Positions 31,894 to 63,367 of a stretch of DNA of 64,000 nucleotides are shown here, one piece after another. The stretch's first letter is position 1. Each line of letters begins with the position of its first letter. The position numbers and the translations under genes were made by a program. This stretch comes from a bacterium (lineage in GTDB: Bacteria > Patescibacteriota > Gracilibacteria > JAUYGZ01), in assembly GCA_030690415.1 (NCBI GenBank), contig JAUYGZ010000011.1:6269-70268 (forward strand), written 5' to 3'. The notes below the pieces were generated by a model. That model saw only the letters and a list, made by a program, of their open reading frames with translations. It had not been told where the DNA came from and did not search any database.

Positions 31894-32715
31894 TCATGTC
31901 TTCCGCCAACTATCAGCATCTTCATCTTCATCTTCTTCATCTCCAGCCTCTTCAGCCCCATCTGAAAAAGCACTGATGGCATCATTCAAAGGATCATCAT
32001 GATCAAGTTCACGATAAAATTCACCATCATCAGGAATAGGCTCAGCAGGTTGCTTCTCTCGACCATCATCTGCGGCAAAAGCCTCCATTGCGTTATCCAA
32101 CACTTCCGGATTGTCCAAAAGCCCAAATGACATTTCAAACATGGCCTTTTCAACTCTTCCCGGATCACAATCTCCAGAGTAAGCGGGATCCGAGTTTCGC
32201 CACTCTAAAACGACTTCCATCAATAGCTTGAGGGTAGAAAGATTCAGAACAGCTCCAGGCTCCCCATTGTCTTCTACAAGAATTCCATTTTCCCAAAGGC
32301 TATCAAAATGCTCAGCAGTAAAACAATAGTAACCGGGTGTCTGTCTCTCTGCCTTCGTCTTGCTAAGATCCTTTTTCAACACTTGTAGAGCTTCCTTCCG
32401 GGCATCCTCCCCATCCAGCCAATCGATCAACATATCGAGAACATCTGCCAGTGGCTCACTTTTTTCAAATCTCAACTTTTCCAGAACAGGAGCAAAAAAA
32501 GCGAGTTGCTGAACATGGTTCTCTTTCTGTTCTTCATCGTACAGAGCAGCCAGGACCAGACGAACTTGCGCTATTTTCTCAACAAAACGTGAAAACTCCA
32601 TACCGGCCAATGCCGCAATGGCCGCATACTGAGAAGAAACTAGTACCTCCTCATCAGCTCCACCTTCCAACGATGCATATGCAGAATAAATATCAATTTT
32701 ATCAGAATACGCCAT
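31894..32715 (-). CDS. Hypothetical acidic protein with a D/E-rich C-terminus
   Basis: The 273-aa ORF is intact. I recognise no family. It is convergent with fusA. Confidence 0.6.
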   Translation of the reverse strand: MAYSDKIDIYSAYASLEGGADEEVLVSSQYAAIAALAGMEFSRFVEKIAQVRLVLAALYDEEQKENHVQQLAFFAPVLEKLRFEKSEPLADVLDMLIDWLDGEDARKEALQVLKKDLSKTKAERQTPGYYCFTAEHFDSLWENGILVEDNGEPGAVLNLSTLKLLMEVVLEWRNSDPAYSGDCDPGRVEKAMFEMSFGLLDNPEVLDNAMEAFAADDGREKQPAEPIPDDGEFYRELDHDDPLNDAISAFSDGAEEAGDEEDEDEDADSWRKT

Positions 32716-36011: not shown

Positions 36012-36521
36012 TTATTCCTTTGGGTCAACTGCATAATCAGCATTGGTCTGGTTCTCCCTCTTCGTTGTCATCTGGATTCCCAAAGAACGCAACTTCGACT
36101 TAAAATCCTCAAGAGCTCCTTCAATCCTGGCAAGAGTCGCTACAATTTCTGCTTCAGAATGACCCTGAAGAGTGCCTTCCAAAATCACGGTCATGACCTG
36201 TCCCTTCTCCGGCAAGCTCAAGACTTGATTTCTCTGAAGACCAGCTTCATCGATCCCTGATGGAGCTTCTTCTCCATGATATAAGCCCTCGGAAAGCCAT
36301 TGCTGATATGCCCCCCTGCTTTGAGCCAACTCCTCATCCCCTGGGGAAACAGCAGAAAAAATTTCCTTACGCTGTTCCAAAAACACTGGGTTCACGACTA
36401 CGAACCTCTTGCCTTCAACATCAGCAGTCCGTTCTTCCAGCTTAAACTCTCCAACCAGACCACCGTTATCTATCCTATTGCCCCATTGCAAACCTTCTTG
36501 AACCATAAAAAAAAATGACAT
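36012..36521 (-). CDS. Hypothetical protein (169 aa), stop/start-coupled to the 2,053-aa gene
   Basis: Its ATG (36519-36521) shares one nucleotide with the upstream TAA (36521-36523), forming TAATG. An alternative start is Met6. I recognise no family. Confidence 0.6.
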   Translation of the reverse strand: MSFFFMVQEGLQWGNRIDNGGLVGEFKLEERTADVEGKRFVVVNPVFLEQRKEIFSAVSPGDEELAQSRGAYQQWLSEGLYHGEEAPSGIDEAGLQRNQVLSLPEKGQVMTVILEGTLQGHSEAEIVATLARIEGALEDFKSKLRSLGIQMTTKRENQTNADYAVDPKE

Positions 36522-39500
36522 TATATAGCCCTCTGCAAATGCCTCGACTGACGCTCCTTCATAATCGCATCGGCCACCTTTTCCGCCTTCTTTACCTCCT
36601 GCACATTCAGCCTGATTTCAATCTCCGTATTCCCCAACGTCACATTGCCCCAGGCCAACAAAATCTGGTACACCAGCTCCTGGCGATTCTCCCAGCTCCG
36701 GATACCGACACACTCTCTCAGTGCCGTATTCACATCAAGATCCTCAAGATTAAGAGCATTATAATCTTTGCTCTCAATAATATGAAGCAGCATTTCTTCC
36801 GTCTCGGTCGTCATGAGAGTAGGGTTGAACAACGCTCGGTTGGTCGGTTTGTGATTGGTGAAATAGGGTGTTCGGAGAGAAATGGTCTTCCCCTGTGACT
36901 CCACAAGGTGAATAACATCACTTTCCTGTCGCTCCAATAGAAGGAGGTTCCTTGCCCAGAGCTGTTCCGGAATACCTTGCTGAAAGACCGATCCGCCATA
37001 TTTGGTGGTAATAGCCTTTTGGATAACCGCGCAATGCTTTTGCAAGCGTTCATTGATACGAGGATCCCTCTGGATAAAGGAAAAGACATCCTGGGAAGCA
37101 CGGGCAGGACCACTGAATTGACGACCCTTTACCGCGAGCTGGGTATACAATGTTCCGGTGATGACCCCGGCATCTTTCATTTTTTCTCCAAAATGCCTCA
37201 AAAGAGACTCCATCCCCCTCGGATCGATGAAAGGATTACCACAATAAGTGCTCGCGATCGGATTATAGATCCGATCAAAAATGGCACGGTCCAACAGGGT
37301 TGTTTTTTGTTCTCCGTGTTCACTCCGCAGCGCAACCTGATACTGATTCTGAAAAAGATCATAGTCCGTATCTTCAATGGTCCAGGTCTGCCCACCCGCG
37401 TCTGAGAGCTTCCAAAGATCATCTTCCAGTATTGTTTGGCCCTTAAAAAGATCTCGCACCATCTGGTCAGCCTCGAAACGCTTCCCGGCAACTTCCCGAA
37501 ACTTCAAAATCCCGTTCCTGGCCTTCCCACTGGGAGACAAAAGCACGTCCCAACCGAGAAGATCATCCAACGTTTCGTGATATTTTCTGAAAAGCTCTGA
37601 TCGTCGAGAATTCTTGCTAAACTTCACACTGGCAAAAAGATTCGGCTGATCCCCACTGGTCCCCTTTTCCCTGCGATAACCCTTCGGATAGTCCTGAGTC
37701 ATGAGTGTGACAGGATTTTCTTCCTCCTGAAAAGCTCCGCCTGGAGGTTCTTCAAAATTATTAATCACATAAAACATATTTACCCGAGTCGGGCGCAAAA
37801 AAGAATTTTCATTACAGAGTCTGCTGATAGTCGTCCTGGGATTTTTCGGATGATCCTTATTGGTTTTACTAGCAGTTGATATCTTGTCTCTGAAACGTTG
37901 TTGCCAGTTTTCACTAATATCCGTCATCCGCATGAAATCTCCTGACTCAGTCCCCAGGAGATAAATCTGCCCATCGTCTCCCGTGAACAAAGAAAGCATA
38001 TCGCCCGACAAAAGCTCGATAGACTTCACCTTCCGGGCTCCTCCCCGTCCTTCAATGACCTGCTCAACCATGGCAATAATAGTCTCTGACTTCCCTGTCC
38101 CACTATCACCCGCAAGAACAAAAGTTTTTCGAAGTCCATTCTCCAGCTCAATCGTCAACGCTGATCCATGGACAGGAAGCCCGCCTATCGCCTTCACACG
38201 TTCATTCGCGTTCGTGAGAATCGGCTTCTTGAGATACCCCATGTAGTTCGTGATCTCTTCACTATCGACCCAAGACACCGGCAAAGGCGTTTTATGAGTA
38301 TCGTCATACTGATCAAAAAAGTATCCAATACGATAGTCTTCTCCCATGACCTTGGAAGGAATTCCAAGAAAGCTCACGCCATCGGGACGCAGGCTTTTCA
38401 GGTCGTCAAAAGAGACATCTGTCTGGGGAAAAAGCCGAAGCTCCTCAGCTAAATAGTGAGAGTATGAGCGATTCATCACCAGCATAAGCCGACTTGGGCC
38501 TACCTGAACCATCTTACAGACATAGTCATTCGGAGCCAAAACATTCACGAACTCCTGAAGCCGATATCGAAAATAATCCGGCTGAGGAGCATCATTCCCA
38601 TCGCCATCTCGTCGATATATCCCACGCTCAAAACCTGCCACACGAGCGGTTCCTCCTGTGATCATTTCAGGAGAAGGGTCGGTCGGCATGGTCTGTCCGG
38701 CAAACTCAGAGCGTGCTACCAGATCCCGAGCCCAGCTCGGTAAACGTGCGTCACCCGCAATCCCTCTCAAGGACTGATAGCCAACCTGAAAGGAAGGCTT
38801 CACTTTAATCCCCTTCTCCTGCTCTTCAGTCAAAAAAGCCTTTAAAAATTCATTAATAAATCCTCCAATCTTTTTCTCAGCACCCAGAAGACTATCCGCC
38901 ACATGATCGGGGTGGGTCCCCTGAGAAAACTGAAGAGCTAAAATCTTAATCGTGTCATCGCTATACCATCGCTGTGCAACCATACCGGCAATTTTCTGGA
39001 ACAAAGAAAGCTGAACATCATTAAAGTCGCGAGTATCAAACTTATCAGCAAAACGATGCGCCCCATAATAGGCAACCAGTTCATCATCTTTCAGTTTTTT
39101 CAAAGCGGGAATCCGCGCTCTCACCTGAAGTAAGTAATGATTAAAGAGATCTTGAAAAGCCCGGCTTCTCACAAATCTCTTTGCGTCCTTACAGTCAACA
39201 TTCCGAAGGGTCACGATGGTCGCGGGCGAGTCCGGCTCGATACTGGTGAGGTAATCTGACACACTGGGGCTAAAGCGTTGTATTATGGTTTTCTTAGGAG
39301 GAGGAGGGTTCTTTTTGACAGCTTCAATCAAGGGCGATTTATCTCTGAAGGCTCTTGCAAATTCAATCTCTCCTCCGGGAAACAGATCCTTAAGAGCGTT
39401 CCCAATAGGATTCAGATCCTGACTCGTGTTCAGCTCCGCCCGCTTCTCCCGAAAAGCCTTCCAGTATTTTAAAAGCAGCCGTAAGTCCGTCTCAAGAGCT

Positions 39501-42500
39501 AAGGAAAGCATTTCATATCCCTCTCTGGTCCCATCCACCATTCCACCGAAGGCAAATCGAACATACCCTTTCGGCCGGGGGACCACATCGATCTTGCGAC
39601 TCCTCGCAATAGCCTCTAAAAAAGGCTGAATAGCAGGGTCGTCCCCTTGCTCATCGAGTTTAAAACAGAAGTAAAAAGGTCCTTCCGGCTTGATGCATCG
39701 TTGTTCAATGCCGGGAAAATCTTTTTCAACCCGCTTGATAGCATCGATAGCAGCCTGGCTCCTCTTGGCAGAATCCCTCTGGGTCTGCTTATCAAGCCTC
39801 AGGTTCTTGAGGCGGGAAATCAGCATATTCGTATACTGCTTCAGATGTCTCCAGTCAGCTGCCCTAAGCTGAAGATGGTCCAAATCGTTCCGCGCCTCTA
39901 CCAAAGCCTCGTAGAGGGGAAGACAAAATAAATCAGAATCCAGGCGACAAAAGTCCTCTCCAAGAAGCGAATCGAGCACCTTCAAGGGATCTTGTATCGT
40001 AATAGCTCCCTCGAGAGCCTTGCAAGCCTTTTTTACAGCTACACCGGCCTTCAGGGTCGCCTGATCCAAATACAAAGACAGGGAGTGCGTAGCATCTCGT
40101 TGACGATCTGCAAAGACTGCAAAAGTCTCACCCTGAGGATTGGTTTCCTGGTCATTCGTCACCACCACCCCAGTCCTTCTCCCTGCTCCCATGGCCCACT
40201 TAGTGGTCGGAAGCGAAGTATAAATGGTAATAGGGTTGGAAAAACGCCCCCGATGCATTTCATAAAACTCAGAGAGGGACACATCTCCATTTTCTGCTTT
40301 GATTTCCTTCGAGACCTGCTTCCGATAGGCTTCATCCGACAAGATCGTCAAACCATACTCCGAAGCAATATCGAGAAGCTCCAGTTTTATCCGATACGGC
40401 ATGACTTTCGAGCTTGGATTGTGAGGGTCATTGATGATAAGAAGAGTACTGGAGCAGTACAGACGAAAAAGCTCAGGAAAATCAGCAAGACGGTCTTTCA
40501 TGGATTCCAATTGTTTTTTCAGGGATGAGGAGTCCAGATCCCCGGATTCATTCATCGTGAGCTGAAGAACATTTTTCGAGGGGTAGTCATCCTCACTCAG
40601 GACATCACTAAAGGTCCAGCTCACATCAGCAAGAGCGAGGTTTGGCCGGAATGATCCATGTTCGATGTCGTTCAACAGTCGCTCCAGCAGCTCCAGATCA
40701 TCTGGCTGATTCCTTCTCCGAAGCTGATCCAGCCTCCCTTGAAACAGATCGGCTCCCCCCTTCACACCCCTTCTCACCGTCCCTGAAAACCCCCGAAGAC
40801 GATTGGCGGCATCACGGAACAAGCCCCGTTCAAGCATTTTCGCCGCCTCTTCGATCCCGAACTGCTTCAGTAATTGGGTCACCTGAACCTTCAGATATCC
40901 CGGAATATTGACCCCTAAAACTTCATCCAGGTGCTGAATCAAAGACTCCAAGGTTGCTGAAGAGTTTTCAGCCGTCGAATAGAGTGTCTCGTTAACAAAG
41001 GAACGAAAAAAAGCCATCAGACGGCCTTCGGGATGTTTGTGCTGATCGATGTTCCGAATGGTCCGATGTCGGCTTTCTCGATCGGCAAATGCTCTTCTTT
41101 GGGCCGAATCCTCACTCGAAGTGCTCTCGGCATCTACCCCCCGTCGGGCTTTCAAGTGTTCGAGCCTCTCTCTTAATACTCTAAGATCATCGTATTGGAA
41201 CCGGTCAACCCCGGCCCGTGACTTCTGAAGAAAAAACTTTCCCACAAGACCGAGCTGTCGCCGACCACCACCCTGGGGAACAGACACGCAGCAATAACCC
41301 TTTCCTTCGAGAGCCTTAAAAAAATACTGAAAGGTAAGGTTGCTGGTGTTCTCACGAAGTTCTGCTTCCATCCCTTCAAGATCTTCTCCGCTCTTCACTC
41401 GACGAAGGAAGTTTAAAAAATCCAGAAAACCCTTGAGACACAGGTAATCCTTCTGAGCCGTCATTTGCCATTCTTGCTTTCTTATCCGTTGGGGGTCTGC
41501 TACATGAACACCCTCTCGCTCATATTGCTGCATCTTTTTCTGAACCGCTTCCTGGAGTTCTCTCAGATCTTCGTAGGAAAAATACTGGAGCATTCTTCTC
41601 ATATTCATCTGCGTATTGGCGGGTGTTCCGGAATCCTTGATATGAAATTTCTCTAAATGATTCTTGATCTCCGGCTGAATAGTCGCCACAAAACACATAC
41701 TCGATCCCCTGGCATTCGGTGATTCATCCACGATGACAAGACGCCCGATGACCCCCTTCCACTTCTCCAATAGGATATCGCTACTCAAAACATTATGAGA
41801 AACCGATTGCAGCCTGACGACAAAAAGACTTTTTTTATCCGCCTCCATTTTTGCAAGCAAATCATCATCAAGAGCATGGCAGGTCTCATTCAAAGGTCTG
41901 CTCCCGTTGGCATACTGGCTCAGAAGATGTTCTTTAATGAGCCGAACAGCTGTATCCGCAGTGCCAGATATCGTGACTTTTTTGAAACCTCTTAGTCCTT
42001 CGAAATTGACAAAGTCAGTCACTTCCGACTCAAAAACAGCTCTTTCAGATGTCGTTGTGTAATGTGTACTCTGCTCCACCATCTGTGAAACAAGACCCAA
42101 AAATCGGTCAAAAACAACCCCATCGACCGAAAGGAGATTTCGAAATTCAGAGATGCTCCTCAGTCGTCCCCCAAAAACAAGATGCTCAATGGTCTCAATG
42201 CCTTGTGGGGTGATCGGGGGGGTTCCAATTGAAAACTTATACTGCAGCAATGCCTCTGCCTCCCGGGGGCCAACCGTTAGTCCCTCCGAGCCATTGCCGT
42301 GAACGACCCTCCCAACAACCCTTCTCAGTTCTTTTTCAAACTCATTACTCTCATTGACAATGCGAAAAACAGCACCCTGATTCGCCTTTGATATGATTTG
42401 ATTGATGTATTCACGATCAATCTTTCCCAACAGAAGTTCACAAATTCTCTTCCTTCGCTCCAATAAGGGAAGAAGGCTGCTGAGTTTTTCATCAGTATCT

Positions 42501-42682
42501 TTACCCTGAGAAGCGAGATTTTCTCTTAATAATCTCAGGATAAGAGAGACATCCTCGAGCTGTACCATACCGTCAATAAGAGGACTGGCAATCGTTTCTG
42601 CCATAAGGGACTCTGCGACGGCGTGGAGGGAGTCTATATCCCTCTCGAGACCAACGGGGATCTGCCCTTTATGTTTACTCAT
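36521..42682 (-). CDS. 2,053-aa multidomain protein. It has an unrecognised N-terminal ~450 aa, an aminotransferase class I/II-fold region with a large insertion, and a PEPCK(ATP)/HprK-like P-loop kinase region
   Basis: The 6.2-kb ORF is intact. Aminotransferase-order motifs are VSVPQGGGRRQLGLVG (res ~465), LLIINDPHNPSSKVM (~748), LTILSDEAYRK (~779), TSLPTTKWAMGAGRRTGVVV (K828), PEGPFYFCF (~999) and VVPRPKGYVRFAFG (~1033). Kinase motifs are VHGSAL..(14)..FVLAGDSGTGKSETIIAMV (1504-1539), LLSGDMLSLFTGDDGQIYLLGTESGDFMRM (~1557) and STYCGNPFIDP (~1811). Confidence 0.8.
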   Translation of the reverse strand: MSKHKGQIPVGLERDIDSLHAVAESLMAETIASPLIDGMVQLEDVSLILRLLRENLASQGKDTDEKLSSLLPLLERRKRICELLLGKIDREYINQIISKANQGAVFRIVNESNEFEKELRRVVGRVVHGNGSEGLTVGPREAEALLQYKFSIGTPPITPQGIETIEHLVFGGRLRSISEFRNLLSVDGVVFDRFLGLVSQMVEQSTHYTTTSERAVFESEVTDFVNFEGLRGFKKVTISGTADTAVRLIKEHLLSQYANGSRPLNETCHALDDDLLAKMEADKKSLFVVRLQSVSHNVLSSDILLEKWKGVIGRLVIVDESPNARGSSMCFVATIQPEIKNHLEKFHIKDSGTPANTQMNMRRMLQYFSYEDLRELQEAVQKKMQQYEREGVHVADPQRIRKQEWQMTAQKDYLCLKGFLDFLNFLRRVKSGEDLEGMEAELRENTSNLTFQYFFKALEGKGYCCVSVPQGGGRRQLGLVGKFFLQKSRAGVDRFQYDDLRVLRERLEHLKARRGVDAESTSSEDSAQRRAFADRESRHRTIRNIDQHKHPEGRLMAFFRSFVNETLYSTAENSSATLESLIQHLDEVLGVNIPGYLKVQVTQLLKQFGIEEAAKMLERGLFRDAANRLRGFSGTVRRGVKGGADLFQGRLDQLRRRNQPDDLELLERLLNDIEHGSFRPNLALADVSWTFSDVLSEDDYPSKNVLQLTMNESGDLDSSSLKKQLESMKDRLADFPELFRLYCSSTLLIINDPHNPSSKVMPYRIKLELLDIASEYGLTILSDEAYRKQVSKEIKAENGDVSLSEFYEMHRGRFSNPITIYTSLPTTKWAMGAGRRTGVVVTNDQETNPQGETFAVFADRQRDATHSLSLYLDQATLKAGVAVKKACKALEGAITIQDPLKVLDSLLGEDFCRLDSDLFCLPLYEALVEARNDLDHLQLRAADWRHLKQYTNMLISRLKNLRLDKQTQRDSAKRSQAAIDAIKRVEKDFPGIEQRCIKPEGPFYFCFKLDEQGDDPAIQPFLEAIARSRKIDVVPRPKGYVRFAFGGMVDGTREGYEMLSLALETDLRLLLKYWKAFREKRAELNTSQDLNPIGNALKDLFPGGEIEFARAFRDKSPLIEAVKKNPPPPKKTIIQRFSPSVSDYLTSIEPDSPATIVTLRNVDCKDAKRFVRSRAFQDLFNHYLLQVRARIPALKKLKDDELVAYYGAHRFADKFDTRDFNDVQLSLFQKIAGMVAQRWYSDDTIKILALQFSQGTHPDHVADSLLGAEKKIGGFINEFLKAFLTEEQEKGIKVKPSFQVGYQSLRGIAGDARLPSWARDLVARSEFAGQTMPTDPSPEMITGGTARVAGFERGIYRRDGDGNDAPQPDYFRYRLQEFVNVLAPNDYVCKMVQVGPSRLMLVMNRSYSHYLAEELRLFPQTDVSFDDLKSLRPDGVSFLGIPSKVMGEDYRIGYFFDQYDDTHKTPLPVSWVDSEEITNYMGYLKKPILTNANERVKAIGGLPVHGSALTIELENGLRKTFVLAGDSGTGKSETIIAMVEQVIEGRGGARKVKSIELLSGDMLSLFTGDDGQIYLLGTESGDFMRMTDISENWQQRFRDKISTASKTNKDHPKNPRTTISRLCNENSFLRPTRVNMFYVINNFEEPPGGAFQEEENPVTLMTQDYPKGYRREKGTSGDQPNLFASVKFSKNSRRSELFRKYHETLDDLLGWDVLLSPSGKARNGILKFREVAGKRFEADQMVRDLFKGQTILEDDLWKLSDAGGQTWTIEDTDYDLFQNQYQVALRSEHGEQKTTLLDRAIFDRIYNPIASTYCGNPFIDPRGMESLLRHFGEKMKDAGVITGTLYTQLAVKGRQFSGPARASQDVFSFIQRDPRINERLQKHCAVIQKAITTKYGGSVFQQGIPEQLWARNLLLLERQESDVIHLVESQGKTISLRTPYFTNHKPTNRALFNPTLMTTETEEMLLHIIESKDYNALNLEDLDVNTALRECVGIRSWENRQELVYQILLAWGNVTLGNTEIEIRLNVQEVKKAEKVADAIMKERQSRHLQRAI
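37133..38365 (-). other. PEPCK/HprK-like P-loop kinase region of the 2,053-aa protein (residues ~1440-1850). The Walker A motif lies at 38087-38110
   Basis: The reverse complement of 38087-38110 is GGT GAT AGT GGG ACA GGG AAG TCA (GDSGTGKS). Compare the PEPCK kinase-1a motif GLSGTGKTT and the HprK motif GDSGVGKSE. The downstream S.YCG.PF resembles PEPCK SxCFGxPF. Confidence 0.55.
39460..41320 (-). other. Aminotransferase-fold (PLP-dependent) region of the 2,053-aa protein (residues ~455-1075)
   Basis: The motif order and spacing follow fold-type I aminotransferases, except for about 200 extra residues between the GGG..LGL block and NPHNPS. The putative PLP lysine is K828, and D783/Y786 lie in SDEAY. 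Confidence 0.6.
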
Positions 42683-60332: not shown

Positions 60333-60363
60333 TGTGTGATGACTGGCAGATCATGTCCCCCTA

Positions 60364-60390
60364 CTACCTCAGATGAGGTGGTTTTTTTTA
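60364..60390 (+). terminator. Attenuator terminator upstream of thrA
   Basis: ctacctc (60364-60370), loop agat, gaggtgg (60375-60381), then T8. The competing antiterminator pairs tgaggtagt (60325-60333) with actacctca (60363-60371) over 9 bp. Confidence 0.8.
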
Positions 60391-60410
60391 TCTTCTTAAT
60401 CTTTCTTCCC

Positions 60411-62882
60411 ATGAAAGTCCTGAAATTTGGAGGGACCTCTGTCGGTACTCCAGACGCGATCAGAAACGTTGCCACAATCGTTGAAAAGACTCAGCAGGGA
60501 AACGAAGATCCCATTGTCGTCGTCTGTTCGGCATTTTCTGAGGTGACGAACCAGTTGATCAAAGCAGCCAATCTGGCTAAAGACAATGATCAGGAATACA
60601 AAGGCCTTGTTTATCAGTTGGGGAAGCAACATCTGGATTCGATTGATCAGCTTTTTGAGGATCCTCAAGAAAAAAGAAAAGTTCAGGCTATTATTCTTAA
60701 AACCATCGAAGAGCTCGAAAGAAGCCTCAATGCCTGTGCGGAGCTGGGACAGCTGCCATCAGCCACTCACGATAAAATCCTTAGCTGTGGAGAGCGCCTT
60801 TCAACAAGCATCGTGGCTCACTATCTTCAGGAGAGAGGTCTTGAAGTAGCTTTTCTAGACGCAAGAAAAGTTATCAGAACCGATAAGAATCACGGAGACG
60901 CACAGGTGGACTTCGCCGTCACCAACAAGAACATTCAGCATTATATGGCGGAGCAGAGAGTTAAGATTCAAGTAGTAACCGGATTTATTGGGGCAACCGC
61001 CGACGGTCAGACGACGACCCTTGGAAGAGGCGGGTCAGACTACACCGCGACCATTTTTGGGGCGGCACTCGGTGTCGATCGGGTTGTTCTCTACAAGAAG
61101 GACGTAAACGGGGTCTGCACCGCAGATCCAAAAAGAGTGCCCAATGCGAAAGCCCTGATGGAAATGTCCTATAATGAAGCGGCGGCGCTCACAACACTTG
61201 GCGCGAAGGTTATCCATCCGGCAGCAATGGTCCCGGTTCAGGAGAAAAATATCCCTATTGAAATCAGGAACACCACGGACCTGGAAACTTCAGGAACATT
61301 AGTGTCTCGTGTCCCCGAGAAAAATGGCGATGTCGTGAAAGGGATAAGCTCTCTCGAAGAGGTGTCGTTGGTGACGCTCAAAGGGCCTGGGCTTAGGGGT
61401 GTTATAGGGACTTCAGCGAGGCTGTATGAGGCTTTGAGCAAATCGGGTGTGAATGTGATTCTGGCAGTACAAGACGCCTCAGAAAATAACATTTGCGTGG
61501 CGGTGAATCCAAGCGACGAGAAAAAAGCAAAGAAAGCCATTGAAGATGAGTTTTACCGAGAAGACCACCAAGGTCTCATGACAGTTGAATCGGAAGGAGA
61601 CTTTGCAATTATCTCTGTTGTTGGAGATGGGATGATAGGAACCCATGGCATGATGGGCCAATTCGCAACGGCGTTGGGCAACGCAGGGGTAAATATCCAT
61701 GCCGTAGCGCAAGGGTCTTCGGAAAACAGTATTTCAGCCGTGATCAAAAGACAAAAGTTGGATAAGGCTCTTCAGGCGGTCCATGATAAGTTTTTTGAAC
61801 ACATCCTTCGACTCTTTGTTGTTGGAGCCACGGGGAATATTGGGAAAACGCTGCTCGAACAAGTGAGAACAACAGTCGAGCAACTGTGGGTTCGAAACAA
61901 ACTCAAGATTGTATTGTCAGGGGTGGCCAGCAGTAAAAAGATGTTCTTAAATTCGCAGGGGATAGGCTTGAACGAATGGGAAAAGGCGCTTCTCACAAAA
62001 GGCGGGGAAATGAGCTTCACGAATTTTACTGAAAAGATGAAACAAATGGATCTTCCCAATGCAGTTTTTGTAGATTGCACTGCCGAAGAAACGATCACCG
62101 AGCTCTATGAATCAATCCTCCGTGCGAGCATTTCAATTGTGACGCCAAACAAGAAAGCCATGACGGGGGAATTAGAAAAATATAAGGGGCTCAAAAAAGC
62201 AGCAGAAGAGAAGAAAGTGGGCCTGCGCTTCGATACTACTGCAGCAGCGGGTCTCGGCGTGATTAGCAGAATCAAGGAATTGAGGGATCAGGGAGATCAG
62301 ATTAATCGCATCGAAGCCGTGCTCTCTGGGACGCTCAGTTATATCTTCAACACTTTTGACGGGACAAAACCCTTTAGTGAAGTGGTGAAAGAAGCCAAAC
62401 AAGCCGGGTACACGGAGTCAGATCCGCGCGACGATCTGAACGGAATGGATGTGGCACGAAAGATCCTCATATTGGCTCGCGAGAGTGGGTATGATCTAGA
62501 GCCAGGGAACATCCAAGTCCAAGGCCTTCTCAACGATGCATGTCATCAGGCAGGAAGCGTGGAAGAATTCTTCACAGAGCTGAAAAAAATGGACTCCCAT
62601 TTCGAAACAATGAGACTCAAGGCTGAACAAGAAGGAAAAGCACTTCGATATATTGCCCGTTTTAGCAAGGACGAGCAGAGTGCTAAGGTCGCTCTTGAGG
62701 CAGTTCCCAAAAATCACCCTTTTGCAGGACTTTCCGGCGCCGACAACAGCATTGCCATCAGTACGGAGTACTACGACGGCAATAGTCCGGACATCAAAAG
62801 AGGCCCAGGCGCAGGGAAAAGAGTGACCGCTGGTGGAGTCTACAATGATATAGTGAAGGTTGGATCTTCTCAGAAACAATGA
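60411..62882 (+). CDS. thrA: Bifunctional aspartokinase / homoserine dehydrogenase
   Basis: The protein reads MKVLKFGGTSVGTPDAIRNVATIV...GRGGSDYTATIFGAAL...DVNGVCTADPKRVPNAKAL.EMSYNEAAALT.LGAKVIHP. The C-terminal half has VVGATGNIGKTLL. It is 823 aa from the ATG at 60411; the track start (60336) overlaps the terminator. Confidence 0.93.
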   Translation: MKVLKFGGTSVGTPDAIRNVATIVEKTQQGNEDPIVVVCSAFSEVTNQLIKAANLAKDNDQEYKGLVYQLGKQHLDSIDQLFEDPQEKRKVQAIILKTIEELERSLNACAELGQLPSATHDKILSCGERLSTSIVAHYLQERGLEVAFLDARKVIRTDKNHGDAQVDFAVTNKNIQHYMAEQRVKIQVVTGFIGATADGQTTTLGRGGSDYTATIFGAALGVDRVVLYKKDVNGVCTADPKRVPNAKALMEMSYNEAAALTTLGAKVIHPAAMVPVQEKNIPIEIRNTTDLETSGTLVSRVPEKNGDVVKGISSLEEVSLVTLKGPGLRGVIGTSARLYEALSKSGVNVILAVQDASENNICVAVNPSDEKKAKKAIEDEFYREDHQGLMTVESEGDFAIISVVGDGMIGTHGMMGQFATALGNAGVNIHAVAQGSSENSISAVIKRQKLDKALQAVHDKFFEHILRLFVVGATGNIGKTLLEQVRTTVEQLWVRNKLKIVLSGVASSKKMFLNSQGIGLNEWEKALLTKGGEMSFTNFTEKMKQMDLPNAVFVDCTAEETITELYESILRASISIVTPNKKAMTGELEKYKGLKKAAEEKKVGLRFDTTAAAGLGVISRIKELRDQGDQINRIEAVLSGTLSYIFNTFDGTKPFSEVVKEAKQAGYTESDPRDDLNGMDVARKILILARESGYDLEPGNIQVQGLLNDACHQAGSVEEFFTELKKMDSHFETMRLKAEQEGKALRYIARFSKDEQSAKVALEAVPKNHPFAGLSGADNSIAISTEYYDGNSPDIKRGPGAGKRVTAGGVYNDIVKVGSSQKQ

Positions 62883-63367
62883 ACCCATCACAAACCACCA
62901 AAGACCTCCTCCACCAGCTCAGCATCGAATTTCAGGAGTTCACGCACCCACCCGTCTTCACCTGCGAAGAGGCCGAGCGCCTGTGCCCACCCATGCCCGG
63001 CAAAAAGAACAAAAACCTCTTTCTACGCGACGCGAAAGGGAAAAAATATTTTTTATTCAGCCTCGCCCAGGACAAACGACTCAGTATTCAGCAAATGGCC
63101 GATATCGCTGGAGAAAAGAGCCTGAGCTTCGCGTCGGAACGCCGCCTCAAAGAAGTTCTCGGGATAGAGCCTGGTTCGGTCGGAATCCTGGCCCTCATCA
63201 ATGACACTCAAAAACTAACGACGGTCTTTATTGACAGCGATCTTCTCGATCCAGAATGGTTCCAGTCCCATCCGCTGATCAATACGAGCACATGGTGTCT
63301 GAAGAGCGAAGACGTTCCCCGATTTTTATCGGCCACGGGGCATCACGTTATCATCATCGAAAACTGA
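62879..63367 (+). CDS. YbaK/ProX-type aminoacyl-tRNA trans-editing domain protein
   Basis: The 162-aa protein reads H.PVFTCEEAE.......GKKNKNLFLRDAKGKKYFL.SL..DKRLSIQQMADI.GEKSLSFAS.ERL.EVLGIEPGSVGILALIND. Its ATG overlaps the thrA stop (ATGA). Confidence 0.72.
   Translation: MNPSQTTKDLLHQLSIEFQEFTHPPVFTCEEAERLCPPMPGKKNKNLFLRDAKGKKYFLFSLAQDKRLSIQQMADIAGEKSLSFASERRLKEVLGIEPGSVGILALINDTQKLTTVFIDSDLLDPEWFQSHPLINTSTWCLKSEDVPRFLSATGHHVIIIEN

What the first reader, a model, noticed from the sequence alone, without database searches (positions are those of the whole stretch)
36012..42682. 2,053-aa fusion of an aminotransferase-fold region and a PEPCK/HprK-like kinase region, coupled to a 169-aa ORF
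This architecture is one I do not recognise from any described family.

Residues ~455-1075 carry the fold-type-I aminotransferase motifs in canonical order. The PLP-site residues look retained: NPHNPS, SDEAY, TTK(828)WAMGAGRRTG and YVRFAFG. About 200 residues are inserted between the first two blocks.

Residues ~1440-1850 carry VHGSA..GDSGTGKSE, a GDD-containing block and S.YCG.PF. These mirror the PEPCK(ATP) motifs HCSAN..GLSGTGKTT, GDDEH..EGGCYAK and SxCFGxPF, and also the HprK P-loop GDSGVGKSE.

The first ~450 and last ~200 residues have no features I can name. A 169-aa ORF is fused by a TAATG stop/start overlap.

Two hypotheses, both inference:
- a channelled PEP to oxaloacetate to aspartate module (PEPCK-like plus AspAT-like), feeding the thrA pathway encoded 18 kb away;
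- an HprK-type protein or peptide kinase joined to a PLP enzyme acting on a small substrate, possibly the 169-aa partner.
Basis: partly seen in the sequence, partly recalled or inferred. Interest (0 to 1): 0.8.

Follow-up and report, generated by a model that had tools for sequence, protein, structure and literature searches.

The report
Giant aminotransferase–PEPCK-like fusion enzyme
This 2,053-residue gene belongs to a conserved but unstudied bacterial family that joins an intact PLP aminotransferase to a divergent PEP-carboxykinase-fold kinase, probably linking aspartate, oxaloacetate and PEP, while the overlapping 169-aa ORF is an unrelated orphan.

Summary

**Aminotransferase (AT) region.** Profile and structure searches confirm a class-I aminotransferase fold. 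All PLP-site residues are invariant or nearly invariant across 38 homologues.

**Kinase region.** It has a full PEPCK fold, not a bare HprK domain. It keeps the PEPCK-specific Y-G-x-x-K-K, His, P-loop and N-x-R residues. The Mn-binding Asp is an invariant Met.

**Family.** At least 59 proteins of about 2,000-2,200 aa occur in Peregrinibacteria, Myxococcales and Bacteroidota. All are named only as generic aminotransferases.

**The 169-aa ORF.** It has no homologue anywhere and is absent beside every relative. Five Peregrinibacteria loci instead carry a type I asparaginase and a ~80-aa ORF upstream.

**Stand-alone relatives of the kinase domain.** Some sit beside true PEPCK, aspartase or an aminotransferase.

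**Best reading (about 0.4).** A fused Asp ⇄ oxaloacetate ⇄ PEP module. The chemistry is untested, and the Met substitution leaves a different phosphotransfer reaction nearly as likely.

**Verdict.** A new variant of known kinds, moderately interesting.

The parts
36521..42682 (-). Complete 2,053-aa gene (stop codon included)
   Evidence: ORF list and translation. Full-length homologues at 32-54% identity.
42401..42682 (-). Residues 1-94: poorly conserved helical leader
   Evidence: AF2 predicts helices with pLDDT 48-80. Few conserved columns.
41348..42400 (-). Residues 95-445: family-specific N domain. Conserved motifs FSIGTPPITP, QSTHYTT and KDSGTPANTQMN. Alpha/beta. Origin unresolved.
   Evidence: A profile search of 1.84 billion proteins finds it only in this family and in short N+AT proteins. 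No Pfam or PDB hit. The test for AT ancestry was not significant.
39398..41347 (-). Residues 446-1095: class-I PLP aminotransferase domain
   Evidence: PF00155 22.1 bits against a cut-off of 19.7. Profile against PDB E 4e-13. Foldseek E 1.6e-10 over about 400 columns. hhalign against Thermus AspAT E 1.3e-8.
40658..41251 (-). Residues ~478-675: all-helical insertion of about 200 aa inside the AT fold
   Evidence: AF2 secondary structure. Absent from the compact relative P0139 and from Thermus AspAT.
40199..40201 (-). Codon of K828, the predicted Schiff-base lysine
   Evidence: Invariant. Aligns with the catalytic Lys of 1bjw.
38996..39397 (-). Residues 1096-1229: linker / middle region. Bacteroidota homologues carry about 200 extra residues across 1095-1290.
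   Evidence: Domain mapping. AF2 model.
37013..38995 (-). Residues 1230-1890: divergent PEPCK-fold P-loop phosphotransferase domain, with a ~110-aa insertion at about 1690-1800
   Evidence: Foldseek top 50 hits are all PEPCK, E 1e-11. hhalign against E. coli PckA E 7.6e-4. Collinear with the stand-alone family, which matches PEPCK at E 5.8e-7.
38084..38110 (-). P-loop GDSGTGKSE (residues 1525-1533)
   Evidence: Invariant. Aligns with E. coli GLSGTGKTT.
37997..38005 (-). G1560-D1561-M1562: kinase-2 equivalent, with Met in place of the Mn-binding Asp269
   Evidence: hhalign. Invariant in the fused and the stand-alone families.
36524..37012 (-). Residues 1891-2053: helical C-terminal extension, absent from the stand-alone family
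   Evidence: AF2. Alignment A8.
36012..36521 (-). 169-aa ORF overlapping the stop codon. Not part of the conserved unit.
   Evidence: No homologue among 5.8 billion proteins except itself. No tblastn hit in 33 related loci. Codon-usage score ambiguous.

Best explanation
**What it is.** The gene encodes a cytoplasmic multi-domain enzyme of about 230 kDa. It belongs to a conserved, uncharacterised family. Its parts, in order:
- a family-specific N domain;
- a class-I (Thermus-type) PLP aminotransferase with a complete active site and two helical insertions;
- a divergent PEPCK-fold P-loop phosphotransferase;
- a helical tail.

**Proposed mechanism (inferred).**
- The aminotransferase interconverts aspartate and oxaloacetate, with a 2-oxo acid / amino acid partner.
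- The PEPCK-like domain interconverts oxaloacetate + nucleotide triphosphate and PEP + CO2.
- One polypeptide therefore handles the unstable oxaloacetate between two active sites.
- In relatives with an upstream asparaginase the likely direction is Asn -> Asp -> oxaloacetate -> PEP.

**Status of each step.** Shown: the architecture, the folds, and the conservation of catalytic residues. Inferred: the substrates, the direction, and any channelling. The 169-aa ORF plays no conserved role.
For: **AT domain.**
- Pfam, PDB profile, hhalign and Foldseek matches.
- Invariant or at least 90% conserved N755, D783, Y786, K828, R836 and R1042.
- An invariant Arg in GGGR474 lies at the position of Thermus AspAT Lys101 (Lys109 in the standard numbering). 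From my own knowledge, that Lys binds the side-chain carboxylate of Asp/Glu.

**Kinase domain.**
- Foldseek finds only PEPCKs in the top 50, aligned over 410-540 columns.
- E. coli Y207, K212, K213, H232, K254, T255, D268, N331 and R333 map to invariant Y1480, K1485, K1486, H1505, K1531, S1532, D1561, N1614 and R1616.

**Genomic context.**
- A type I asparaginase (TIGR00519, above its cut-off) and a ~80-aa ORF lie directly upstream in five Peregrinibacteria loci.
- Asparagine synthase lies directly upstream in a Lentimicrobiaceae locus.
- Stand-alone homologues of the kinase domain lie beside NF006821-type PEPCK in two loci. One of those also has aspartate ammonia-lyase next to it, and another locus has a class-I aminotransferase.

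**Literature.** Ca. Peribacter genomes were reported to lack PEPCK, to encode L-asparaginase and aspartate aminotransferase, and to have no evident use for oxaloacetate (PMC4736985).
Against: - The position of the Mn-binding Asp269 is an invariant Met in both the fused and the stand-alone families, so canonical PEPCK chemistry may not apply.
- The PEPCK_ATP Pfam score is far below threshold: 12.1 against 26.5 bits.
- The Arg65 equivalent is unresolved.
- Stand-alone paralogues that sit next to a true PEPCK suggest a non-redundant function.
- Their contexts are heterogeneous: the arg operon in Halothermothrix, and unrelated genes in Thermosipho and Kosmotoga.
- Most Bacteroidota loci show no informative neighbours.
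- The window itself has no asparaginase within 64 kb.
- AT substrate specificity cannot be read from the sequence: the best NCBIfam hits are spread over many aminotransferase types.
Confidence: 0.4

Rival explanations
1. The architecture is the same, but the PEPCK-fold domain catalyses a different phosphoryl transfer. It might phosphorylate or dephosphorylate another 2-oxo or enol acid, or an amino-acid derivative made or used by the aminotransferase. It might also use a different metal or phosphoryl donor. The family would then be a kinase-plus-PLP enzyme for an unknown pathway.
For: - An invariant Met replaces the Mn ligand Asp269.
- Scores against every curated PEPCK model are far below threshold.
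- Stand-alone paralogues co-occur with true PEPCK, which suggests distinct activities.
- One paralogue follows argCJBD in Halothermothrix.
- The family has its own insertions and extra domains.
Against: The residues that bind oxaloacetate/PEP in PEPCK (Y207, K212/K213, H232, N331 and R333 equivalents) are invariant. Asn/Asp-related neighbours recur in two phyla.
Confidence: 0.33
2. One of the two enzyme-like domains is regulatory rather than catalytic. For example, the AT fold could act as an amino-acid/PLP sensor, as in MocR/GabR proteins. Alternatively, the P-loop domain could be a nucleotide sensor that gates the other domain.
For: The protein is very large, with non-enzymatic helical insertions and two unassigned domains. 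AT-fold sensor domains are known; this is from my own knowledge.
Against: Both domains keep complete sets of catalytic residues across three phyla at 24-55% identity. There is no DNA-binding or signalling output domain.
Confidence: 0.12
3. An HprK-type protein or peptide kinase joined to a PLP enzyme acts on the 169-aa product of the overlapping ORF.
For: The stop and start codons overlap.
Against: - The 169-aa ORF has no homologue anywhere and is absent next to every relative.
- Foldseek hits are full-length PEPCKs, with no HprK in the top 50.
- No Hpr_kinase_C Pfam hit for this protein.
- PEPCK-specific motifs absent from HprK are conserved.
Confidence: 0.03

Closest known systems
Class I (subgroup Ib) aspartate/aromatic aminotransferases, e.g. 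Thermus thermophilus AspAT (1bjw), Thermotoga AspAT (1o4s), Pyrococcus AroAT (1dju)
   Same: - Fold type I, with the motifs in the same order.
- Schiff-base Lys; PLP-binding Asn, Asp, Tyr and Arg; the alpha-carboxylate Arg.
- A basic residue at the Lys109 position.
   Different: - Embedded in a 2,053-aa protein.
- Helical insertions of about 205 and about 87 residues.
- Preceded by a family-specific 350-residue domain.
- Identity only 12-15% over the fold.
- Substrate unknown.
ATP-dependent PEP carboxykinase (E. coli PckA 1aq2; Thermus 1j3b; NF006821-type PEPCK of Thermotoga)
   Same: - Overall two-lobed PEPCK fold.
- Y-G-x-x-K-K, His, P-loop Lys/Ser, first kinase-2 Asp, N-x-R and S-x-(C/Y)-(F/C)-G-x-x-F motifs in the same order.
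   Different: - Met replaces the Mn-binding Asp269.
- HprK-like P-loop wording (GDSGTGKSE).
- A 110-residue insertion.
- Below every curated PEPCK threshold.
- Fused rather than free-standing.
Unnamed stand-alone 'ATPase / hypothetical protein / PEPCK(ATP)' family of 550-640 aa (Thermotogae, Halothermothrix, Thomasclavelia, archaea; at least 3,285 proteins)
   Same: Closest relatives of the C-terminal domain: 24-30% identity and collinear, with the same invariant residues including D-M.
   Different: They are free-standing. They lack the N, AT and tail domains and the 110-aa insertion. They are themselves uncharacterised.
HPr kinase/phosphorylase (PF07475)
   Same: Same P-loop superfamily and a near-identical Walker A wording.
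   Different: HprK has only the P-loop domain. It lacks the Y-G-x-x-K-K/His/N-x-R set. No Pfam or Foldseek top-50 match here.
Sequential AspAT + PEPCK pathways (PEPCK-type C4 photosynthesis; gluconeogenesis from aspartate). This is from my own knowledge.
   Same: The same two reactions in series, with oxaloacetate as the shared intermediate.
   Different: There they are separate enzymes. Here they would be one polypeptide. This is unproven.

Membership tests
Aminotransferase class I/II (PF00155) | Score above Pfam's gathering threshold | tested here: met
   22.1 bits against 19.7, residues 729-796. The family profile against PDB aminotransferases gives E 4e-13 in two stretches.
Aminotransferase class I/II (PF00155) | Schiff-base lysine at the aligned position | tested here: met
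   K828 aligns with the catalytic Lys of Thermus AspAT (hhalign E 1.3e-8). Invariant in 38 sequences.
Aminotransferase class I/II (PF00155) | PLP-binding Asn, Asp, Tyr, phosphate Arg, and the alpha-carboxylate Arg | tested here: met
   N755, D783, Y786 and R1042 are invariant, and R836 is at least 90% conserved. Aligned positions are shown.
Aminotransferase class I/II (PF00155) | Fold type I three-dimensional structure | tested here: met
   AF2 model with pLDDT 85. Foldseek top 50 are all class-I AT-fold enzymes, E 1.6e-10 to 1.4e-8, about 400 columns.
Aminotransferase class I/II (PF00155) | PLP binding and transaminase activity | not testable with these tools
   Needs purified protein.
PEP carboxykinase (ATP) (PF01293 / TIGR00224) | Score above the curated thresholds | tested here: not met
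   PF01293 12.1 bits against 26.5. NF006821 13.4 bits against 369.
PEP carboxykinase (ATP) (PF01293 / TIGR00224) | PEPCK fold (N-terminal lobe plus P-loop lobe) | tested here: met
   AF2 model with pLDDT 88. Foldseek top 50 are all PEPCK, E 1.3e-11, 410-540 columns, TM about 0.45 on the target.
PEP carboxykinase (ATP) (PF01293 / TIGR00224) | PEPCK-specific Y207-G-G-x-x-K212-K213 and H232 | tested here: met
   Y1480, G1482, K1485, K1486 and H1505 are invariant and aligned.
PEP carboxykinase (ATP) (PF01293 / TIGR00224) | Kinase-1a P-loop Lys254/Thr255 | tested here: met
   K1531 and S1532.
PEP carboxykinase (ATP) (PF01293 / TIGR00224) | Kinase-2 Asp268-Asp269 (Asp269 is a Mn ligand) | tested here: not met
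   D1561 is kept, but the Asp269 position is the invariant M1562.
PEP carboxykinase (ATP) (PF01293 / TIGR00224) | Substrate-binding Asn331/Arg333 | tested here: met
   N1614 and R1616 are invariant and aligned.
PEP carboxykinase (ATP) (PF01293 / TIGR00224) | Substrate-binding Arg65 in the N-terminal lobe | tested here: inconclusive
   The hhalign alignments begin at E. coli residue 113-153. The candidates are the invariant R1374 or R1347.
HPr kinase/phosphorylase (PF07475) | Match to the Hpr_kinase_C profile or structures | tested here: not met
   No Pfam hit at E <= 1. No HprK among the Foldseek top 50. Only one stand-alone homologue hits it, at E 0.06.
Stand-alone PEPCK-like 'ATPase' family (unnamed) | Collinear homology over the whole ~560-aa protein | tested here: met
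   tblastn E 2e-23 to 7e-19. Alignment A8 shares 42 invariant columns.
Conserved two-gene unit with the 169-aa ORF | Partner ORF present next to homologues | tested here: not met
   No tblastn hit in 33 loci. No homologue in 5.8 billion proteins.

The most novel reading that the evidence does not exclude
The family is a single-polypeptide Asn/Asp -> oxaloacetate -> PEP converter. It would supply the 'missing' PEP carboxykinase of Peregrinibacteria and give their otherwise dead-end oxaloacetate a fate. It would use a previously unrecognised PEPCK lineage in which a Met replaces the Mn-binding Asp. That lineage would also include thousands of stand-alone 'ATPase' proteins in Thermotogae and Firmicutes.
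Probability: 0.3. Interest if true: 0.75.

Novelty: new variant of a known kind. Interest (0 to 1): 0.6.

Why it matters
**If the coupled reaction is real:**
- It would be the first fused aminotransferase-PEPCK enzyme that I know of.
- It would change metabolic reconstructions of Peregrinibacteria, which were reported to lack PEPCK and to have no use for oxaloacetate (PMC4736985).
- It would assign a first function to a large clade of PEPCK-like proteins now annotated as 'ATPase' or 'hypothetical'.

**If the kinase domain does something else:**
- The conserved Met at the metal site marks a new chemistry within the PEPCK fold.

**Testability:**
- Cultured Bacteroidota carry orthologues (Alistipes hominis, Marinilabilia salmonicolor, Anaerophaga thermohalophila), so the question can be tested directly.

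Tried and rejected
**The 169-aa ORF as a partner: rejected.** tblastn on 33 loci and a search of 5.8 billion proteins found nothing. A codon-usage test of whether it is coding was ambiguous: 0.053 in frame against 0.041 in the +1 frame.

**N domain as a degenerate aminotransferase copy: left unresolved.** The order of motifs looked similar by eye. The tests gave:
- hhalign against the family's own AT domain, E 0.58;
- hhalign against Thermus AspAT, E 0.15;
- an HMM of the N domain scored the real AspAT no better than 742 of 3,000 shuffles;
- Smith-Waterman z = 1.4 for the window's N domain; only the short relative P0139 reached z = 3.2, p about 0.012.

**N domain as PEP-carboxylase-like: rejected.** A PDB profile hit to 1fiy had E 0.83. 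It is not significant, and nothing else supported it.

**Other negative searches.**
- Pfam scan of 21 N-domain sequences found nothing consistent.
- Defence-system models (PADLOC) gave no hits.
- Searches for 'PEPCK-like' with aminotransferase, and for Lys109 of Thermus AspAT, found nothing usable.
- Asparaginase in the window: none.

**Conserved neighbours.** Clustering of flanking ORFs found none outside Peregrinibacteria beyond close-relative synteny.

**Technical limits.**
Full report
**1. Observation**

The minus strand carries a 2,053-aa ORF (36521..42682) and a 169-aa ORF (36012..36521). The stop of the large ORF and the start of the small one share one base (TAATG).

All quoted motifs are present at the stated residues. 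There are two corrections:
- 'NPHNPS' is really NDPHNPS (751-757).
- The 'GDD block' (TGDDGQ, 1567-1572) is neither conserved nor the kinase-2 motif (see section 4).

The database's gene call starts the small ORF at Met6 (164 aa), which gives no overlap.

**2. A real, conserved family**

A search of 5.8 billion proteins found 59 relatives:
- 47 span nearly the whole length (about 2,000-2,200 aa) at 32-54% identity.
- A more distant group of ~2,200-aa proteins has about 27% identity.

A scan of one genome per species placed the family in three groups:
- Candidatus Peregrinibacteria/Peribacteria MAGs;
- Myxococcales MAGs;
- many Bacteroidota, including cultured Alistipes hominis, Marinilabilia salmonicolor and Anaerophaga thermohalophila.

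Every name found is the generic 'aminotransferase class I/II-fold PLP-dependent enzyme' or 'hypothetical protein'. Literature searches found no description.

The window's organism was not identified directly. Its closest homologues are from Peregrinibacteria.

**3. Aminotransferase domain (about 446-1095)**

Sequence and structure evidence:
- Pfam PF00155 is just above threshold (22.1 against 19.7 bits).
- A family profile hits solved class-I aminotransferases at E 4e-13, in two stretches covering the N-P-x-N-P/D-E-x-Y block, the Lys block and the C-terminal G-Y-V-R block.
- hhalign against Thermus AspAT gives E 1.3e-8.
- The AF2 model of residues 1-1130 has pLDDT 85 and pTM 0.86. It matches class-I AT-fold enzymes at E 1.6e-10 over about 400 columns.

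Residue mapping from the hhalign alignment, in Thermus sequential numbering:

| Window | Thermus AspAT | Role |
|---|---|---|
| N755 | N175 | PLP binding |
| D783 | D203 | PLP binding |
| Y786 | Y206 | PLP binding |
| K828 | K234 | Schiff-base Lys |
| R836 | R242 | phosphate Arg |

R1042 lies in the C-terminal G-Y-V-R block that matches the aminotransferases' alpha-carboxylate Arg block. All six are invariant or at least 90% conserved in 38 sequences.

Two helical insertions are present relative to Thermus AspAT:
- about 205 residues between GGGR474 and N755;
- about 87 residues between K828 and R1042.

The invariant Arg of GGGR474 lies at the position of Thermus Lys101 (Lys109 in the standard numbering). 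This was seen through the compact relative P0139. From my own knowledge, that Lys binds the side-chain carboxylate of Asp/Glu. I could not find an open paper to cite for it, so this is a lead, not a test.

**4. PEPCK-like domain (about 1230-1890)**

The AF2 model of residues 1100-2053 has pLDDT 88 and pTM 0.85. Its top 50 Foldseek PDB hits are all ATP- or GTP-dependent PEPCKs:
- E 1.3e-11 to 2e-9;
- 410-540 aligned columns;
- 11-14% identity.

That is far more than the roughly 170-residue HprK catalytic domain could give.

hhalign against E. coli PckA gives E 7.6e-4 over 243 columns.

| E. coli PckA | Window |
|---|---|
| Y207 | Y1480 |
| K212 / K213 | K1485 / K1486 |
| H232 | H1505 |
| K254 / T255 | K1531 / S1532 |
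| D268 | D1561 |
| D269 | M1562 |
| K288 | about R1585 |
| N331 / R333 | N1614 / R1616 |

All the window residues are invariant.

The Met at the Asp269 position is invariant here and in the stand-alone relatives. From my own knowledge, Asp269 is a Mn ligand together with K213 and H232.

The window has a ~110-residue insertion splitting the G-T-x...S-x-x-F-G motif region.

The Arg65 equivalent could not be placed.

Curated PEPCK models score far below threshold. This is a PEPCK-fold relative, not a member of the annotated PEPCK families.

**5. Relatives of the kinase domain**

The domain's nearest relatives are free-standing proteins of 550-640 aa:
- At least 3,285 proteins match at E <= 1e-10.
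- They occur in Thermotogae, Halothermothrix, Thomasclavelia, Acholeplasmatales, Planctomycetia and an archaeon.
- They are annotated 'hypothetical', 'ATPase' or occasionally 'PEPCK (ATP)'.

They bridge to PEPCK: hhalign E 5.8e-7 over 288 columns, with sub-threshold PF01293/NF006821 hits.

Their neighbours are mixed:
- an NF006821-type PEPCK in Thermotoga;
- the same PEPCK type in a candidate-division FCPU426 MAG, where aspartate ammonia-lyase follows;
- a divergent class-I aminotransferase in Thomasclavelia;
- shikimate-pathway genes in an archaeon;
- the argCJBD genes in Halothermothrix;
- unrelated genes in Thermosipho and Kosmotoga.

**6. N domain and the termini**

Residues 95-445 carry very conserved motifs: FSIGTPPITP, QSTHYTT and KDSGTPANTQMN.

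A profile search of 1.84 billion representatives found this domain only in this family and in shorter 'N + AT' proteins such as P0139, 726 aa.

I suspected a degenerate aminotransferase copy. The tests did not support it for the window protein. A weak PEP-carboxylase hit was chance-level. The domain remains unassigned.

Residues 1891-2053 form a helical tail that is absent from the stand-alone family.

**7. Gene neighbourhood**

The 169-aa ORF is an orphan:
- nothing in 5.8 billion proteins except itself;
- no trace next to any relative.

Five Peregrinibacteria loci instead share this order: type I asparaginase (TIGR00519, 301-323 bits against a 260 cut-off), then a 78-81-aa ORF, then the giant gene. 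L008 keeps a weakly similar small ORF only.

A Lentimicrobiaceae locus has asparagine synthase directly upstream on the same strand. Three Bacteroidota loci have a convergent LysE-type exporter.

The window has neither the asparaginase nor the small ORF. A divergent fmt gene lies 129 nt upstream.

ThrA is present at 60336..62882, but nothing links it to this gene.

**8. Mechanism**

Shown:
- a four-part architecture;
- two enzyme folds with conserved catalytic residues.

Inferred: the AT converts aspartate to oxaloacetate, and the PEPCK-like domain converts oxaloacetate to PEP (or the reverse).

Reasons for the inference:
- the PEPCK substrate residues are conserved;
- there is a basic residue at the acidic-side-chain position of the AT;
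- Asn/Asp enzymes recur as neighbours in two phyla;
- PEPCK, aspartase and AT genes lie beside stand-alone relatives;
- Ca. Peribacter was reported to lack PEPCK yet to make oxaloacetate from asparagine/aspartate, with no evident sink (PMC4736985).

Against the inference:
- the Asp-to-Met change at the metal site;
- stand-alone paralogues coexist with true PEPCK;
- contexts are heterogeneous.

I put about 0.4 on the Asp-oxaloacetate-PEP module. I put about 0.33 on a different phosphotransfer coupled to the AT, about 0.12 on a regulatory role for one domain, and about 0.03 on the HprK/partner idea.

**9. Verdict**

- The domain calls are right.
- The partner-ORF idea is wrong.
- The PEP-oxaloacetate-aspartate idea is plausible but unproven.

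This is a new variant built from known enzyme kinds. It is already present in databases but undescribed, and it can be tested in cultured Bacteroidota.

Noticed in passing
window 1-23857 (- strand): One uninterrupted reading frame of at least 7,952 codons runs off the left end of the window. This is a giant gene of more than 24 kb.
   Followed up: no
L001 6638-8004; L002 4602-5988; L003 8559-9941; L004 6978-8368: In Peregrinibacteria relatives, a type I asparaginase and a conserved 78-81-aa ORF of unknown function lie directly upstream of the giant gene. The small ORF has no Pfam, NCBIfam or PADLOC hit. The window has neither gene.
   Followed up: partly
P0059 (1,947 aa): A related inserted aminotransferase domain is fused to a glutamate-synthase-small-subunit-like C-terminus (Fer4_20 + Pyr_redox_2) instead of the PEPCK-like domain. 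The AT module has therefore been combined with different partner enzymes.
   Followed up: partly
P0139 (726 aa) and P0100 (792 aa): Short proteins have only the N domain plus a compact aminotransferase without the helical insertions. They may be the ancestral form of the N+AT module.
   Followed up: partly
L028 9203-12513; L032 7410-12556: Stand-alone PEPCK-like proteins lie next to an NF006821-type PEPCK in Thermotoga. The same pairing occurs in an FCPU426 MAG, where aspartate ammonia-lyase follows. This is a possible paralogue pair of unknown purpose.
   Followed up: partly
L018 2331-8972: In an Ignavibacteriales MAG the homologue is split into two ORFs of 841 and 1,357 aa. This could be a frameshift, a pseudogene or an assembly error.
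   Followed up: no
L009-L027, region aligned to window residues 1095-1290: Bacteroidota homologues carry about 200 extra residues between the aminotransferase and the PEPCK-like domains.
   Followed up: no
window 60336-62882 (+) and 62879-63367 (+): A bifunctional aspartokinase/homoserine dehydrogenase (ThrA type) is followed by an overlapping YbaK-like tRNA-editing-domain gene.
   Followed up: partly
window 31894-32715 (-): This 273-aa acidic ORF with no Pfam hit scores better in the +1 frame (0.123) than in its own frame (0.058) in the codon-usage test. The gene call there may be wrong.
   Followed up: no
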